From: an uncultured archaeon
Lineage (GTDB): Archaea; Asgardarchaeota; Lokiarchaeia; Sigyniarchaeales; SOKP01
Direction: 5' to 3'
NCBI GenBank assembly: GCA_964486045.1
Contig: CAZALK010000022.1
Location: forward strand, 1-64,000
Length of the DNA: 64,000 bases
Position numbers and translations under genes: made by a program. This document shows positions 22,710 to 58,827 of this stretch, one piece after another (within the stretch, counting starts at the first letter, position 1; the number at the start of each line of letters is the position of its first letter). A model generated the notes under the pieces. The model did not search any database. It had not been told where the DNA came from and saw only the letters and a list, made by a program, of their open reading frames with translations.

Positions 22710-25120
22710 TTAAGTTCTACACATTCTTTTAAGTAAAGTTGGATCCACTATTTCTTTCGGTTTCCAACCTCTTTCTTTGAGGTATTCCTGTATTTCAGTT
22801 TTCATGTTAATAGGAATGTCTGCTTCAAGGCGAATGAATTTATCTAAATCGTTTGGAAACTGAACTCCTTTATATTTCCGTTCTAAATCAACCCAGTGGG
22901 ATAGTTTTATCATACGGCCTTTTGAATTGTCGGCAGGACGTATCACGAGTTTTGCCACTAAGCAGATGGCTTGTTCAATACTTTCAGCAGGAGTTAAAAG
23001 ATGCTCTGGTCCGGGACCTACAATGTGACCTTCGGTTCCATCTCGGGCATTGTAGACTTTCCATGTACTTTCATCATCCGCGCGACTAAGATACATACGA
23101 CGATACTCGGCACCATGTGGACCAATTACTGCTGGGATACCTAATCCGTTAGCCATACTTGCTATACTAGCTGCCTTTTGAGAATATGCGCCCCAAGCCA
23201 CACCTACTGCACCAAGACGATTCAAAATATAGTCTGCGATTTCTTCAAAATTGCCTCGTAGTGGTCTTCTCGCAAATATATTAGCAACTTTAATTGCTGC
23301 ACCCGTTATCCACGCGTCGGCGACACAGCTTCCAACGTTAACCAAGCCTCCACGATCGAAATCACCTGGAAATCTTTCATACAGAGTTTTACCTTCATCG
23401 TCCTTTACTAGACCTATGTCCATAGCCGCGCAACCGGAGACGCAAACTATATAATTTCGGATTAAAAATTCTTCTGCCATAGTATAGAGTTCTCGAATAC
23501 TGTGTGCATAATTTGAACATCCAATCAATGCAATAATGCCAGGGATCTCCCCAAGTACGATAGGGGCACCTACATTTCGAATTTCTGTGTCTAGAATAGG
23601 TCCGCGTCCCGATCTACATTTGTATCTTTCAGTTTTAATGTATTCACTTGATGCATACATAATTAAGGTTAAAGGAGAGACGTCTTTCATACAATCAGCC
23701 TCACATCTTCCACACGCTAAACACTCATCAAAAAGACTCGAGAGTAGAGTAAAATCCCCATCTTTTGCCAGACCTACAGCTTCAACAAGGGGTAAATCGT
23801 TTGGACAGTTTCTCTGACAATTACCACAACCATTACATCTCATTGCCATCTCTATAGAACCTTTCTCATCAGGAACACCACTTTTAGCATTTCTAATCGG
23901 TTTAATTTTTACAGCTGTTTCGGCGGCAACGGCTCCTGCTTTTGTTGGATTTAAAATTAAAACTCCATCTAACCTTCCACTTACTAAATCATCTACGATT
24001 TCATCAACTGGATCACCAGTTCTATCAGGTAGTCCAGCCATAACTTTTTCGTTAGTAGTGATATAAGGAGCACCAACTTTCTTAGCCTCGTCGTAAGTTT
24101 GCAACACTACACACTGTTCATCGACCATCACAACGTCAGCTAAACCAGAACGAATATATGTTAATTGTCTTGAAAATGAACCAATGATTTTTGCTCCATC
24201 GTAATACCTCGTTAAATCGTGAGCAGTGCAGCATATAGCTCCTACATCAAGCTTCTCATCTAAACCTTTCTCTCGTATATAATCAACTAATTCTACACCG
24301 GGTGCAACATTATGTCCAATCATCAAAATTGTTGCCTTGTTTTCAGTATCCATGGTACCCATACCGAGTTCTACAATTGGAGTGTCTGGTTCACCAACAG
24401 GCATCCCATATGCTGCGATTTGAATTGCATCCGAAACTTCCATTCCTATCGCGTCACATAAACCAGCTAAAAAACTTTTAGCTTCATAATCTATATGCGA
24501 ACTTTCTTGTCCGGTGTGACCTGCTGCTAAGAGTTGCGTGATCTGGTAGTTTACTCAGCAAGCGCGAATATCTTGCCAAAGTGTACCCAGTCCATCGCAG
24601 TCTCCAGATCATCCAGACTTTCCGGCTTAATTCCAACGATCAAGCGTGTTAATGGCATCTCTACTGCAATATTATTTCCAAAATTCAATGGAACGTTACC
24701 GTATTTCTCTCGAAGCCAGTGTAGTAAATGGTCGCCGTGCGCGCTGTTTCGAACTAGATTTTTAAACAAAACCTAGTGACACGCAGCGCCTATACAACAA
24801 GCAATCTCTACTATACGTGCATTTTGCGTTTCCATATTGATACCACAAGCCCCTGTTCTACCCTTAGATAAATTGCATTTACCGTATGTGCAAAGACAAC
24901 ACATATCGCAAATCGGCATATATGTTGGTTTGTACCTATCCATGAGTGTGAAAAACCAGTTCCGCAGCGTTGGTATTCCTGGGCGAGGAGTTGGACCCAT
25001 TGGTTCCCATTCAGTCTCATCACCATAAGAAATCCTGCCAGTCGTTAGCTCAAAGCCTTTAATCGTACCCAGCGGTCCCTTGTACTCATCTATTTTTATT
25101 TTTGCGCCTGTCTTTTCCAT
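22710..25120 (-). CDS. cdhA: CO dehydrogenase/acetyl-CoA synthase complex alpha subunit, interrupted by two short introns; join(24778..25120,24581..24747,22710..24548), 782 aa
   Basis: Three ORF pieces are colinear parts of CdhA (CDMCCLCTYGKC..GACG; ACH|SAHGDHLL; HTGQE; GHN; CCTAHD; DEQC; two ferredoxin CxxCxxC motifs; GSC). Removing 30+32 nt gives one uninterrupted frame. Confidence 0.93.
24549..24580 (-). other. 32-nt putative BHB-type mRNA intron 2 of cdhA
   Basis: Insert tttggcaagatattcgcgcttgctgagtaaac contains a stop and shifts the frame. Stem UUGGCAAG/CUUGCUGA. Excision gives DWVH|YQITQLL. Confidence 0.75.
24748..24777 (-). other. 30-nt putative BHB-type mRNA intron 1 of cdhA
   Basis: Insert actaggttttgtttaaaaatctagttcgaa has an in-frame UAG. 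BHB fold GCGCUG-CGUG-[UCA]-stem...UUCG-[AAA]-CAGCGC. Excision gives GAACHSAHGDH. Confidence 0.85.
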
Positions 25121-50188: not shown

Positions 50189-51784
50189 ATGACTCTTGGA
50201 TATCTCGGATTAATCCTCCATGGGCATATTCCTTGGTGTAAAAAGTCGGGAGTTTGGCCAGCAGGAGAAGAATGGCTCATGGAAGCAATGAATGAGACAT
50301 ATATTCCAATGTTAAATGTTTTAAGGGAATTTAAAGAAAGAGGAGTAAAAACAGCACTAACAATAAGTATTACTCCTATTTTGGCTGAACAGTTAGCAGA
50401 TGATTATATGAAACAAAGATTTTCAGAATACATGGAAAATTTAATTTCAAGGGCAAAAAAAGATATTACAAGATTCGAAAACCATCTTGAAAGGAAAATT
50501 ATAGCAGAATTTCATTTAAGAAATTTTGAGTATGTCTTAGAATCGTTTTATCATAATTACTATAGAGACATATTAGGAAGTTTCAAATGGTTACAAGATG
50601 AAGAAATTATTGAAATAATAACATGTGGGGCCACACACGGATTTTTACCACTTTTTGAGAGCGATTCTGGAATTTTTTCTCAAATTCAAATGGCGGTAGA
50701 CACTCATAAAAAATATTTCAACAAAGAACCAAAAGGAATTTGGCTTCCGGAATGCGCTTATCGCCCAAAAGACTACAGAGATGATAAATTTCGAGAAAGT
50801 ATTGAGTACTGGTTGAATAATTCTAACCTTGAATATTTTTTTGTTGATTCTCATGGAATTATTGACGCCGAGATTATTCAACACAGAAATGAAATTGGTT
50901 TGAATACAAATTTTGGTTATAAATTACAGAATGAAATTTCGGTTTTTGGGAGAAATATAACTATTAGTAAACAAGTTTGGGATGCTAAAATTGGTTACCC
51001 AGGGAATGAGTTTTACAGAGAATTTCATAATAAAGATCACGAGTCTGGGTTACATTATAATCGAATTACAAACAAATTACTACCACAGAATGAGAAAGAA
51101 TTATATAACATAAAAAATGCAGATAAAACAGTTGATTCTGATGCTTATCATTTTATCACACTAGTATCAAATGAGCTAAAGCAGGAATCTGAATCGTTTG
51201 TAGACAAGGGAATTGTAGTTTGCGCCTTTGATTTCGAATTGTTTGGGCATTGGTGGTTAGAGGGTGTAGATTGGTTAAAAAGAATTATAGAAATTATATC
51301 TACCGATAGTACTGTTGAATTAATCTCGATATCTGATTATATCTCTCAATATAAGGATAATTTCTCAATAATTAAAATGAGAGAAAGTAGTTGGGGAGAA
51401 GGAGGTGATTTTAGGGTATGGAAAAACCCTGATCATGATTGGTTATGGTCATATATAAATGGCTCAATAAAGGATTTTGAAGAAGTTTTAGAAAATAATC
51501 CAATTCCTGATGAGTTACAATTAAGGATCCTGAAACAAACCGCTAGAGAATTATTGTTAATGGAGGGAAGTGATTGGCCTTTCCTTATGTATACAGAACA
51601 AGCGAAAGAGTACGCTAATAAAAGGTTTCATCATCATCATCAAAGGTTTCTTAAATTATTATGGGCAGCGAAAAATTTCAATGACGAAAATAGAATTAAC
51701 AGAGGAGAATTGAACGAGATTGAGTCCATTGATTCCTGCTTTCAAGATATAGATATCAACTATTTTAGAAAAAGAAAGTTGTAA
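50189..51784 (+). CDS. GH57 1,4-alpha-glucan branching enzyme (DUF1957 type), intron-less paralogue
   Basis: LHGHIPW, ETYIP, ATHG, WLPECAY, FDFELFGHWW, SSWG, ARELLLMEGSDW. ATG at 50189. Confidence 0.9.
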   Translation: MTLGYLGLILHGHIPWCKKSGVWPAGEEWLMEAMNETYIPMLNVLREFKERGVKTALTISITPILAEQLADDYMKQRFSEYMENLISRAKKDITRFENHLERKIIAEFHLRNFEYVLESFYHNYYRDILGSFKWLQDEEIIEIITCGATHGFLPLFESDSGIFSQIQMAVDTHKKYFNKEPKGIWLPECAYRPKDYRDDKFRESIEYWLNNSNLEYFFVDSHGIIDAEIIQHRNEIGLNTNFGYKLQNEISVFGRNITISKQVWDAKIGYPGNEFYREFHNKDHESGLHYNRITNKLLPQNEKELYNIKNADKTVDSDAYHFITLVSNELKQESESFVDKGIVVCAFDFELFGHWWLEGVDWLKRIIEIISTDSTVELISISDYISQYKDNFSIIKMRESSWGEGGDFRVWKNPDHDWLWSYINGSIKDFEEVLENNPIPDELQLRILKQTARELLLMEGSDWPFLMYTEQAKEYANKRFHHHHQRFLKLLWAAKNFNDENRINRGELNEIESIDSCFQDIDINYFRKRKL

Positions 51785-57081: not shown

Positions 57082-58827
57082 TTACTTTTTTGCAAACGGT
57101 TCAAGATCTATAGCTTCAAATATATCATCATTAGCTTCTATAGAACCAAGGAAGTGCCATTCACCTTCGTCGACATTCTGACCATTCGCATAAGTATTCG
57201 CCATGTTATAAAGTCTATTGAAATTCTCATAATGTAATGCAACCCGATTTTCAGCGTAATCTCTTGCTGACCAAGTTGTTATTAAAAATTGCCAATCACT
57301 GCTCTCTAATAATAACAGTTCTCGAGCCATCTGCTTAAGAATTTTAATGAGGTTAGGATTATTAGAATTTTTATACTTAGCTATAATATCTTCGCTTTTA
57401 GATTCACATTCATAAATTCGCTCCCACGTCCAGGTCGTCCACTCATTAAGCCAGACCCAGTGAGAGCTTGCTTGACCCCAAGAGCCTTCAATCACACTTA
57501 CTACTTTATTGGGTGGGTTTTCTTCGAGATAAAGTCTAGTATTAGTTAATTCTATCTCAGGGTCATCTTCCATCCATCGTAAAACGCGTGCAATCCACCA
57601 ATTTCCTTCAAACCACCAGTGTCCAAAGAGTTCTGCATCATAGGGTGCCACAATTATACCATTTTTCCCAAACTTATTCTTATATTCTCTTAAAATGTCT
57701 TTAGCTAAATTAATATAGTGACTGGCATTTTCATCCAATTTTCCAGGAATATCATCTGGCCAATATAGCATCTTCTTTCCCAAATCAAGCTTAGGGCTGG
57801 TAACACGCCAATATTTGAGTCCTCCAGGATAATGCTTCTTGTGGAAATCTAAGTACTCTGCACAACCCGGATATCCATGTTCCCCGCTCCATACTACGAT
57901 TCCGGTCTTGTCATCTCTCGTGAAAAAACCGACTGGGGCTCCTGTTGATGGATCTGTAGAGATGAGATACGGTTCATACTGGGATTTTTCAAAAGAGGTT
58001 GGAATTTCTTCGTATTGAGATTCAAATTGCTTCCAGAGTTCAGCCAATAATGGAAACCTAGCAGCATAAACTCCTTGTGATTTTCCTCCCAATAATAAAG
58101 CTGTATCAATGAAGAAATACTTTAAACCGTTTTTAGCAAGAAAATATTCGATCCCAGGACGTTCGTATTCTTCGTCTGTTATTGGATTTTTCCACTTGTA
58201 TCCTGGACGGTAAGCACATTCTGGTAACCATGCACCAGTAGGAGCCCTTCCAAAATGCCGTTTATAACTATCAACAGCAGTTTTGAATTGAGCATCTATT
58301 GAAGTTTCTTTAGAAAGAAGCGGAGTATATCCGTGTGTTGCACCACATGTTATTATATCTAAAAGACCCTTATCTTGCAAATCCTTAAACGCACCTACAA
58401 TATCCCTATTGTATCTACGGATAAAGTTATCCTTCACCCTCGAATAGAACTCTTGCCACCATTTAGTTAACTTGATTCTTCCATCCTCGTATTTATTTTC
58501 AGTAAAATCCTCAAAATCAAATACTGCTGCATTATATTTTTCATCTAGATATCCAATAAACGCATCAACAAATCGAGGGTTTCGCAACATTTCACAAAGG
58601 ACTGGTGTAAGGCCAACAGTGAGTTTTGGATGATATCCATCATCAATTAGTTTATATAACTCCATCAATAGAGGAATATAGGTTTCAGCAGCGGCCTCAT
58701 TTATCCAATCCACTTTAGATAATATGATAAATTCATATTATTTTCCATGAGGCCAAACACCATGACCTATAACCCAAGGTAAATGGGCGTGCAAGACTAG
58801 ATTAAATGAACCTAAAATTTCAGTCAT
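57082..58827 (-). CDS. GH57 1,4-alpha-glucan branching enzyme interrupted by a 30-nt intron; join(58743..58827,57082..58712), 571 aa
   Basis: Exon 1 MTEILGSFNLVLHAHLPWVIGHGVWPHG lies upstream of an in-frame TAA. The rest has ETYIP, ATHG, WLPECAY, YDAELFGHWW and ESSDW. Confidence 0.9.
58713..58742 (-). other. 30-nt putative BHB-type mRNA intron of the GH57 gene
   Basis: Insert aataatatgaatttatcatattatctaaag has an in-frame UAA and a perfect 9-bp stem AUAAUAUGA/UCAUAUUAU. Excision gives WPHGMDW. Confidence 0.8.

What the first reader, a model, noticed from the sequence alone, without database searches (positions are those of the whole stretch)
58690..58827. GH57 intron with an in-window intron-less control paralogue
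The ORF track starts this gene at GTG 58713 and loses the conserved GH57 region 1 (HxH). The true exon 1 starts at ATG 58827. Fold: AUGG AA^A AUAAUAUGA auuua UCAUAUUAU CUAA AG^U. Ligation creates a new AUG codon across the junction, giving LHAHLPWVIGHGVWPHGMDWINEA. This aligns without gaps to the paralogue at 50189, LHGHIPWCKKSGVWPAGEEWLMEA. The outer exon helix is weak. The models predict different peptides: splicing HGMDW, AAA-to-AAA bypass HGKVDW, codon-boundary excision HGVDW.
Basis: partly seen in the sequence, partly recalled or inferred. Interest (0 to 1): 0.88.

Follow-up and report, generated by a model that had tools for sequence, protein, structure and literature searches.

The report
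Spliced mini-intron in Asgard GH57 gene
A 30-base insert with a stop codon interrupts a glycogen-branching-type (GH57) enzyme gene of an Asgard archaeon; comparison with about 50 related genomes indicates it is very probably a tRNA-type intron cut out of the messenger RNA, a kind of intron that the papers I could search report inside the coding sequence of only one archaeal gene.

Summary
The GH57 gene (minus strand, ATG 58827 to stop 57082) is broken only by a 30-nt insert, 58713-58742, which carries an in-frame TAA. Removing exactly these bases gives ...WPHGMDWINEA, the sequence found uninterrupted in most orthologues from the same genus.

A homologous 30-nt insert sits 15 nt upstream in the same gene in five congeners and one species of another genus. 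All carrier genes are otherwise intact and under strong purifying selection (dN/dS 0.03-0.07). The hairpin and the exon-intron helix show compensatory changes.

The host is a Promethearchaeota (Asgard) archaeon with two EndA-family genes and RtcB. Its single-copy RNA polymerase A' gene carries an insert of the same 1+9+5+9+4+2 build, so this cell must remove such inserts from mRNA.

The best reading (about 0.8) is a relaxed bulge-helix-bulge mRNA intron.

Weak points:
- No RNA data were available.
- The central helix has 3 of 4 pairs.
- A competing 28-nt register would shift the frame.

First-stage notes of this scan list many similar inserts in this genome. Follow-up reports describe similar inserts in DPANN and Bathyarchaeia genomes. 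In the papers I could search, only cbf5 is reported with such an intron in its coding sequence.

The parts
58743..58827 (-). Exon 1 of the GH57 gene (ATG 58827; 28 codons plus 1 base). It encodes MTEILGSFNLVLHAHLPWVIGHGVWPHG, which includes GH57 conserved region 1 (HxH).
   Evidence: The same N-terminus and start are seen in orthologues. Pfam GH57 starts at profile position 2 only when this exon is included.
58713..58742 (-). 30-nt intron: 1 bulge nt + 9-bp stem + 5-nt loop + 9-bp stem + 4-nt helix strand + 2 bulge nt.
   Evidence: The boundaries are fixed by the uninterrupted orthologues. Relatives' contigs break at 58712 and 58743.
58738..58740 (-). In-frame TAA inside the intron. It ends the unspliced reading frame.
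58745..58748 (-). Exon strand of the central helix (AUGG).
   Evidence: It pairs U-A, G.U and G-C with CUAA (58715-58718); the outermost position is A.A.
58742..58744 (-). 5' bulge AAA. The predicted cut is after 58743.
   Evidence: The cut rule (after the second bulge nucleotide) was verified on the RNA polymerase A' insert of the same genome.
58719..58741 (-). Intron hairpin: stem 58733-58741 with 58719-58727, loop 58728-58732.
   Evidence: 9 of 9 pairs in this genome. In six homologues 90.7% of cells pair, and two pairs change on both sides.
58715..58718 (-). Intron strand of the central helix (CUAA).
   Evidence: Its third base covaries with the exon: A opposite U here and in L169, G opposite C in five site-2 carriers.
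58712..58714 (-). 3' bulge AGU. The predicted cut is after 58713.
57082..58712 (-). Exon 2 (2 bases plus 542 codons and the stop). It covers the rest of the GH57 domain and the branching-enzyme C-terminal domain.
   Evidence: The spliced product is 571 aa, like the orthologues.
50189..51784 (+). Intron-less GH57 paralogue (34-41% identical over the matched parts). It serves as an in-window control for region 1.

Best explanation
The 30 bases at 58713-58742 are an archaeal bulge-helix-bulge (BHB) type intron inside a protein-coding mRNA.

Inferred mechanism: the transcript folds so that exon AUGG pairs with intron CUAA next to a 9-bp intron hairpin. This leaves an A-rich 3-nt bulge on each strand. 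The two-subunit splicing endonuclease (EndA alpha/beta) cuts after the second nucleotide of each bulge. RtcB joins ...CAUGGAA to UGGAUUGG..., which creates an AUG codon and a 571-aa GH57 enzyme with an intact region 1. The 30-nt intron is presumably released as a circle.

Shown here: the exact boundaries, the homologous inserts in relatives, selection on the carrier genes, base-pair covariation, the presence of the enzymes, and the need for such removal in an essential gene of the same genome.

Inferred only: the cleavage and ligation themselves.

The intron belongs to a class of uniform 30-nt introns in this genome. Its patchy, two-site distribution suggests repeated gain, loss or transposition.
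For: 1. Exact junction. Removal restores HGMDW as in most of the genus. Relatives' contigs break at 58712 and 58743.

2. Homologous inserts. A 30-nt insert 60-93% identical to this one lies 15 nt upstream (after GHG) in five congeners. A diverged one lies at that site in another genus. Every carrier gives a complete 571-aa frame after removal.

3. Carrier genes are functional.
- dN/dS is 0.03-0.07, as for all pairs in the genus, and synonymous sites are saturated.
- In the conserved core of exon 1, nine variable codons are synonymous-only among the site-2 carriers.
- The insert's own 'peptide' is not conserved.

4. Structure.
- 80.8% of cells pair, against 26-54% when the partners are slid.
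- Three pairs change on both sides.
- One of these is an exon-intron pair: C-G in five carriers and U-A here. The U-A state recurs in L169.

5. Exon flank. The site-2 carriers all have GGY CAC GGA before the intron. Among intron-less genes CAC occurs in 4 of 39 and GGA in 11 of 39.

6. Machinery.
- The 16S is archaeal and the relatives are Promethearchaeota.
- There are two EndA-family genes and RtcB.
- Asgard EndA is described as (alpha-beta)2 type with the L1 loop. That type is said to cut relaxed BHB forms (PMC5829648).

7. Same architecture elsewhere in the genome.
- Inserts of the same build and cut rule interrupt the single-copy RNA polymerase A' gene (GGAC/GUCU helix, 4/4 pairs).
- The 24 intron-less congeners examined read CMGHFGHIELARPV there.
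- The motif scan also found such inserts at EF-2, a small GTPase, a thiolase-like gene and cdhA.
Against: - No RNA evidence. No RNA run holds this sequence, so excision is inferred.
- The motif is not a canonical BHB. The central helix has 3 of 4 pairs in G000 and 2-3 of 4 in the relatives. The outermost position never pairs. The outer exon helix is about 2 bp.
- A one-base slip gives a 28-nt register with a 4/4 central helix. It is 0.8 kcal/mol better in G000, G014 and L169, and it would shift the frame. The productive register is better by 2.0 kcal/mol in the other four carriers.
- The whole-region fold is not unusual (z = -1.44).
- The site-1 position is unique to this genome, so covariation at this exact site rests on one sequence. 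A recent, poorly spliced insertion cannot be excluded.
Confidence: 0.8

Rival explanations
1. The insert is a recent disruptive insertion that is not removed, or is removed only in the frameshifting 28-nt register. In this genome the gene then yields only a truncated protein that lacks region 1, and it is on its way to being a pseudogene.
For: Site 1 is found only in G000. Its nearest relatives G013, G020 and G022 have no insert. The 28-nt register has the better central helix here. A second GH57 paralogue exists in the window.
Against: There is no other lesion in 571 codons, and the terminal branch is of ordinary length. dN/dS is as low as elsewhere. The intron's helix strand differs from the G014 copy in the way that matches this exon (U-A in place of C-G). 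Six other species keep a homologous insert in an intact, constrained gene. The same genome tolerates such an insert in the single-copy RNA polymerase A' gene.
Confidence: 0.1
2. Translational bypass of the T4 gene 60 kind. The ribosome takes off at AAA before the TAA, skips the hairpin and lands on the downstream AAA, giving HGKVDW.
For: In G000 an AAA codon is followed by TAA and a hairpin, and a second in-frame AAA lies 27 nt on. G014 has GAA...GAA, and G017, G074 and G087 have GGA...GGA in comparable places.
Against: The matching codon pair differs between homologues, and G095 has none in frame. In G000 and G014 the products would be one residue longer than every orthologue in a highly conserved motif. 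The RNA polymerase A' insert of this genome has no matching take-off and landing codons but a perfect BHB. The second RNA polymerase A' insert in G095 shifts the reading frame, so its length is not a multiple of three. To my knowledge bypassing is unknown in archaea.
Confidence: 0.04
3. The splice is in frame but at neighbouring bonds. For example, 30 nt is removed one base earlier, giving HGVDW.
For: The A-run lets the 5' bulge slip. Val is a conservative change.
Against: Val is not seen at this position in any orthologue: 35 Met and 4 Thr among intron-less genes. Cuts one base earlier are not symmetric about either helix register.
Confidence: 0.03
4. The cause is a stop-codon read-through or altered genetic code, a palindromic transposon remnant (MITE), or an assembly artefact.
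For: The insert is in frame and palindromic. Three site-2 carriers have ACGGAA on both sides, which resembles a target duplication.
Against: - Read-through: the insert 'peptide' is unconstrained, and it would add 10 residues inside region 1. Under the standard code the window has the usual dense long ORFs.
- MITE: no second copy with 3 or fewer mismatches turned up in G000 apart from chance AT-rich intergenic hits. Across 135 genomes of the family, the only other genic hits were GH57 genes. The flanks in G000 are not a duplication.
- Artefact: the insert is present in two runs, and homologues occur in MAGs with accession series from different submissions.
Confidence: 0.03

Closest known systems
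BHB intron in the cbf5 (pseudouridine synthase) pre-mRNA of Crenarchaeota (Watanabe 2002; Yoshinari 2006; Yokobori 2009, PMC2738675)
   Same: Both are short introns inside an archaeal protein-coding sequence with a bulge-helix-bulge-type fold. Both hosts have a two-subunit splicing endonuclease. Both show lineage-specific presence and absence.
   Different: The gene is different (a GH57 carbohydrate enzyme) and so is the phylum (Asgard). Here the build is a fixed 30 nt, the central helix is relaxed, and there are two insertion sites 15 nt apart within one genus. This intron is one of many in the same genome. cbf5 splicing was shown experimentally; this one was not.
tRNA introns of Asgard archaea and their (alpha-beta)2 EndA (PMC5829648; preprint 10.64898/2026.10.13.758758)
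   Same: The presumed enzyme and motif are the same. The preprint reports heavily interrupted tRNA genes, repeated gains, and two EndA paralogues in most genomes. Many tRNA genes of this genome are about 30 nt longer than a mature tRNA.
   Different: The substrate here is an mRNA, and the exon junction must keep a reading frame. In my term look-up, that preprint showed no 'mRNA' and one unrelated use of 'protein-coding'.
BHB intron in the 5' UTR of HVO_1309 in Haloferax volcanii (PMC7714728)
   Same: An mRNA is processed by the splicing endonuclease. The excised intron was recovered as a circle.
   Different: That intron is 46 nt and lies in an untranslated leader, not in the coding sequence. 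The host has a different EndA type.
Translational bypass of T4 gene 60
   Same: Both have a stop codon directly after a possible take-off codon, a hairpin, and a matching codon downstream.
   Different: Codon matching is not conserved among the homologues, and the products would have the wrong length. The host is an archaeon.

Membership tests
Archaeal BHB intron (EndA/RtcB-spliced) | The host is an archaeon that encodes the splicing endonuclease and the RtcB ligase. | tested here: met
   The archaeal SSU model scores 1457.6 bits. There are two PF01974 genes over cut-off and one PF01139 gene.
Archaeal BHB intron (EndA/RtcB-spliced) | [quoted passage not shown] | tested here: not met
   In the productive register the central helix has 3 of 4 pairs (A.A outermost) and the outer helix has about 2 bp. 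A 4/4 helix exists only in a 28-nt register that shifts the frame.
Archaeal BHB intron (EndA/RtcB-spliced) | A relaxed form (HBh' type: central helix, one well-formed bulge and an inner helix), as accepted by (alpha-beta)2 enzymes with the L1 loop. | tested here: met
   The 5' bulge AAA lies between a 3-bp helix and a 9-bp stem. The enzyme's specificity is taken from PMC5829648 and was not tested here.
Archaeal BHB intron (EndA/RtcB-spliced) | Cuts after the second nucleotide of each bulge give a precise junction equal to the intron-less gene. | tested here: met
   Joining 58743 to 58712 gives HGMDW as in the orthologues. The same rule gives the exact junction in RNA polymerase A'.
Archaeal BHB intron (EndA/RtcB-spliced) | The structure is kept by compensatory changes in homologues. 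| tested here: met
   Three pairs change on both sides. 80.8% of cells pair, against 26-54% in slid controls, with six sequences only. A seventh sequence has a diverged 8-bp stem.
Archaeal BHB intron (EndA/RtcB-spliced) | The intron is absent from mature RNA, and a circular intron or ligated exons can be observed. | not testable with these tools
   No RNA run was listed for this sequence.
Programmed translational bypass (gene 60 type) | Matched take-off and landing codons are conserved among homologues, and the product has the right length. | tested here: not met
   The codon pairs differ (AAA, GAA, GGA) and G095 has none. The products in G000 and G014 would be one residue too long.
MITE / palindromic transposon remnant | Dispersed repeated copies and target-site duplication. 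| tested here: not met
   No second copy turned up in G000 at 3 or fewer mismatches, apart from chance AT-rich intergenic hits. Across 135 genomes, the only other genic hits were GH57 genes. The flanks ATGGAA and CTAAAG are not a duplication.
Glycoside hydrolase family 57, branching-enzyme type | A GH57 catalytic domain that includes region 1, plus the branching-enzyme C-terminal domain. | tested here: met
   PF03065 matches from profile position 2, and PF09210 matches, on the read-through translation. Enzyme activity was not tested.

The most novel reading that the evidence does not exclude
The GH57 intron is one visible member of a population of uniform 30-nt BHB introns. These interrupt many protein-coding genes of this Promethearchaeota (Asgard) genus, including essential ones such as RNA polymerase A' and EF-2. 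They are gained, lost and moved between nearby sites that share a short exon motif (CAYGGAR).

If so, the closest prokaryotic relatives of eukaryotes would routinely splice mRNAs with the tRNA-splicing machinery, and the introns would behave as mobile elements.
Probability: 0.45. Interest if true: 0.92.

Novelty: new member of a known kind. Interest (0 to 1): 0.8.

Why it matters
- Rarity in print. A 2020 paper states that cbf5 of Crenarchaeota is the only reported archaeal mRNA with a BHB intron besides the Haloferax 5' UTR case it describes (PMC7714728). I found no paper on such introns in Asgard mRNAs.
- A second gene family, and a genome-wide pattern. A GH57 case in an Asgard archaeon adds another gene family. 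Together with the RNA polymerase A' and EF-2 inserts of the same genome, it points to routine mRNA splicing by the tRNA-splicing enzymes in the lineage nearest to eukaryotes.
- Annotation errors. Gene callers truncate such genes. Here the catalytic region 1 is lost from the predicted protein, so metabolic reconstructions of Asgard MAGs may be systematically wrong.
- A system for studying intron movement. One genus has two insertion sites 15 nt apart. Intron copies are far more alike (60-93%) than the saturated synonymous sites (34-51%). This offers a rare chance to study how BHB introns spread.

Tried and rejected
- RNA evidence: no RNA holder was listed for the gene. Only DNA contigs could be laid.
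- Whole-region MFE fold: z = -1.44, not informative. It prefers a three-way junction with a long-range exon helix (GGCCUCAU/AUGAGGCC). The same complementarity occurs in an intron-less orthologue (L007), so it is not specific to the intron.
- Genome-wide census by BHB geometry plus ORF logic: too noisy. Observed counts were only 1.3-1.7 times expectation for every length tried, because adjacent genes and AT-rich intergenic hairpins pass the filter. It was used only to pick out motif-splitting cases by eye.
- Search for other copies of the intron core: none were found outside GH57 genes. The other hits are AT-rich intergenic chance matches.
- 16S against the plasmid collection: it gave only distant haloarchaeal hits and did not help.
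- ARAGORN intron lengths: unreliable for these heavily interrupted tRNA genes.
- The truncated G006 orthologue is due to an N or gap, not another intron.
- One Pfam call failed on wrong coordinates for the EndA loci.

Full report
**What is there**

On the minus strand, a frame opens at ATG 58827 and encodes MTEILGSFNLVLHAHLPWVIGHGVWPHGK. It then meets TAA at 58738-58740. The same frame continues as YEFIILSKVDWINEA... to the stop at 57082. The ORF lister starts the gene at GTG 58713.

That 543-aa ORF matches Pfam GH57 only from profile position 20, plus the branching-enzyme C-terminal domain. When the TAA is read through, the GH57 match starts at profile position 2 and spans the insert. So exon 1 carries the missing region 1.

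**Who carries it**

The genome is 5.18 Mb in 45 contigs with 31% G+C. Its 16S scores 1457.6 bits on the archaeal model. The closest GH57 orthologues come from MAGs labelled Promethearchaeota or Promethearchaeia, that is, Asgard archaea.

The genome has two EndA-family genes and one RtcB. [quoted passage not shown] That type is said to cut relaxed BHB forms (PMC5829648).

**The boundaries are exact**

I fetched the orthologue from about 50 genomes of the same genus. Most are uninterrupted. Among complete orthologues, 35 of the 39 without an insert have ATG at the junction codon and four have Thr codons.

Only joining 58743 to 58712 reproduces ...CATGGAATGGATTGG.... Contigs of relatives in two other metagenomes stop matching the window exactly at 58712 and 58743, and they continue with the other exon. 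Contigs of two runs carry the insert, but these are the likely source samples.

**The same insert elsewhere**

Five congeners (G014, G017, G074, G087, G095) carry a homologous 30-nt insert 15 nt upstream, after GHG. One species of another genus (L169, isolate LW60_4) has a diverged one at that same site. After removal, all six carrier genes in the genus give complete 571-aa frames.

Carriers are scattered in the gene tree, and most sit next to an intron-less relative (I did not tabulate support values).

- Synonymous sites are saturated: 4-fold sites are 34-51% identical.
- The introns are 60-93% identical.
- The G000 and G014 copies share 27 of 30 bases, although they sit at different sites.

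**The carrier genes are alive**

Pairwise dN/dS is 0.03-0.07 for carriers, as for all pairs in the genus. Among the site-2 carriers, the conserved core of exon 1 shows nine codons that vary only synonymously. Two more make replacements (S/A, L/I) that intron-less genes also show. The ten codons of the insert are not conserved as a peptide. Exon 1 is therefore translated in frame with exon 2. The stop-bearing insert must be removed or skipped.

**Structure**

I counted pairs on an alignment of the six inserts from the genus.

- The proposed pairs form in 80.8% of cells, against 26-54% when the partners are slid.
- Three pairs change on both sides. Two are in the hairpin: A-U/G-C with a G.U intermediate, and U-A/C-G.
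- The third is between exon and intron: C-G in the five site-2 carriers and U-A in G000.
- The U-A state recurs independently in L169.

The site-2 carriers all have GGY CAC GGA before the intron. Among intron-less genes CAC occurs in 4 of 39 and GGA in 11 of 39. This fits selection for pairing, or co-transfer of the flanks with the intron.

**Weak points of the motif**

- The central helix has 3 of 4 pairs here and 2-3 of 4 in relatives. The outermost position never pairs.
- The outer helix is marginal.
- A one-base slip in the A-run gives a 28-nt register with a 4/4 helix, and this would shift the frame.
- That register is 0.8 kcal/mol better in G000, G014 and L169. The productive register is better by 2.0 kcal/mol in the other four.
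- Only the 30-nt register is common to all carriers and matches the build seen elsewhere in the genome.

**The cell must remove such inserts**

First-stage notes of this scan listed many 28-32-nt inserts in this genome. I tested that lead. My own motif scan was too noisy for a census. It did recover inserts of the identical build (1+9+5+9+4+2 nt) that split conserved motifs:

- RNA polymerase A' (C13:44101-44130; helix GGAC/GUCU, 4/4 pairs)
- EF-2 (AH|IDHGKTT)
- a small GTPase just before its P-loop
- a thiolase-like gene
- cdhA, in this window at 24748-24777

RNA polymerase A' is single-copy in G000. The 24 intron-less congeners examined read CMGHFGHIELARPV without interruption. G000, G017 and G095 carry an insert at that site, with a compensatory exon-intron change between G000 and G017 (A-U to G-C). 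G080 and G081 carry one at another site. G095 has a second insert that shifts the frame, and G091 has a longer insert near the same place. The Rpb1 domain 1 match spans the G000 insert.

In RNA polymerase A' the known junction confirms the rule 'cut after the second bulge nucleotide'. An essential single-copy gene cannot be a pseudogene, so this organism removes such inserts at the RNA level.

**Rivals**

Bypassing fails because the take-off and landing codons are not conserved, and the products would be one residue too long. Read-through, MITE and artefact readings fail on the tests listed under rival explanations. The main remaining doubt is that the G000 copy, unique at site 1, is recent and poorly or wrongly spliced.

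**Known relatives and novelty**

A 2020 paper states that cbf5 is the only reported archaeal mRNA with a BHB intron, apart from the Haloferax 5' UTR intron it describes (PMC7714728; PMC2738675). A 2026 preprint covers Asgard tRNA introns; my term look-up in it found no mention of mRNA. Six literature searches found no report of BHB introns in Asgard protein-coding genes. The library lacks many subscription journals.

This scan has flagged similar mRNA mini-introns before, in this genome and in DPANN and Bathyarchaeia genomes. Those are unchecked AI notes, except where I tested them here.

**Verdict**

This is a new member of a known but very rarely documented kind. Confidence is 0.8 pending RNA evidence.

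Noticed in passing
G000 C13:44101-44130 (locus L079:402-431) and loci L086, L091, L099, L101, L112: The single-copy RNA polymerase A' gene carries a 30-nt insert ending in an in-frame TAA, with a perfect 4-bp central helix. Congeners carry inserts at this site and at least one other site in the N-terminal region. G095 has two close together, and the second shifts the frame. G091 has a longer insert near the second G095 position.
   Followed up: yes
window 24748-24777, minus strand: A 30-nt insert of the same build (9-bp stem, 5-nt loop) splits a cdhA-like frame (...IACCIGAAC|HSAHGDH...).
   Followed up: partly
G000 C13:92018-92047; C17:96895-96924 (minus); C3:186175-186204; C7:186723-186752 (minus); C1:759271-759300; C5:195271-195300; C11:28707-28737: Further 30-31-nt inserts with a 4/4 central helix split conserved motifs. 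They lie in EF-2 (AH|IDHGKTT), a small GTPase just before its P-loop, a thiolase-like gene, a TGGVPG-motif enzyme, two AIR-synthase-like genes and a mevalonate-kinase-like gene.
   Followed up: partly
whole genome G000; locus L001:1326-1427: ARAGORN finds only 31 tRNA genes in a 99%-complete genome, and many calls are odd. About ten of the genes are 101-106 nt long, roughly 30 nt more than a mature tRNA. This fits heavily interrupted tRNA genes with introns of the same size class.
   Followed up: no
GH57 orthologues, site 2 (loci L013, L014, L055, L060, L070): In G017, G074 and G087 the intron is flanked by the same six bases, ACGGAA, on both sides. This may reflect the two-fold symmetry of the motif (self-complementary CG core plus A-rich bulges), or it may be a trace of the insertion mechanism.
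   Followed up: partly
window 58697-58704 with 58747-58754, minus strand: An 8-bp perfect complement (GGCCUCAU with AUGAGGCC) links exon 1 to exon 2 across the intron. The same complementarity is present in the intron-less orthologue L007, so it may be chance.
   Followed up: partly
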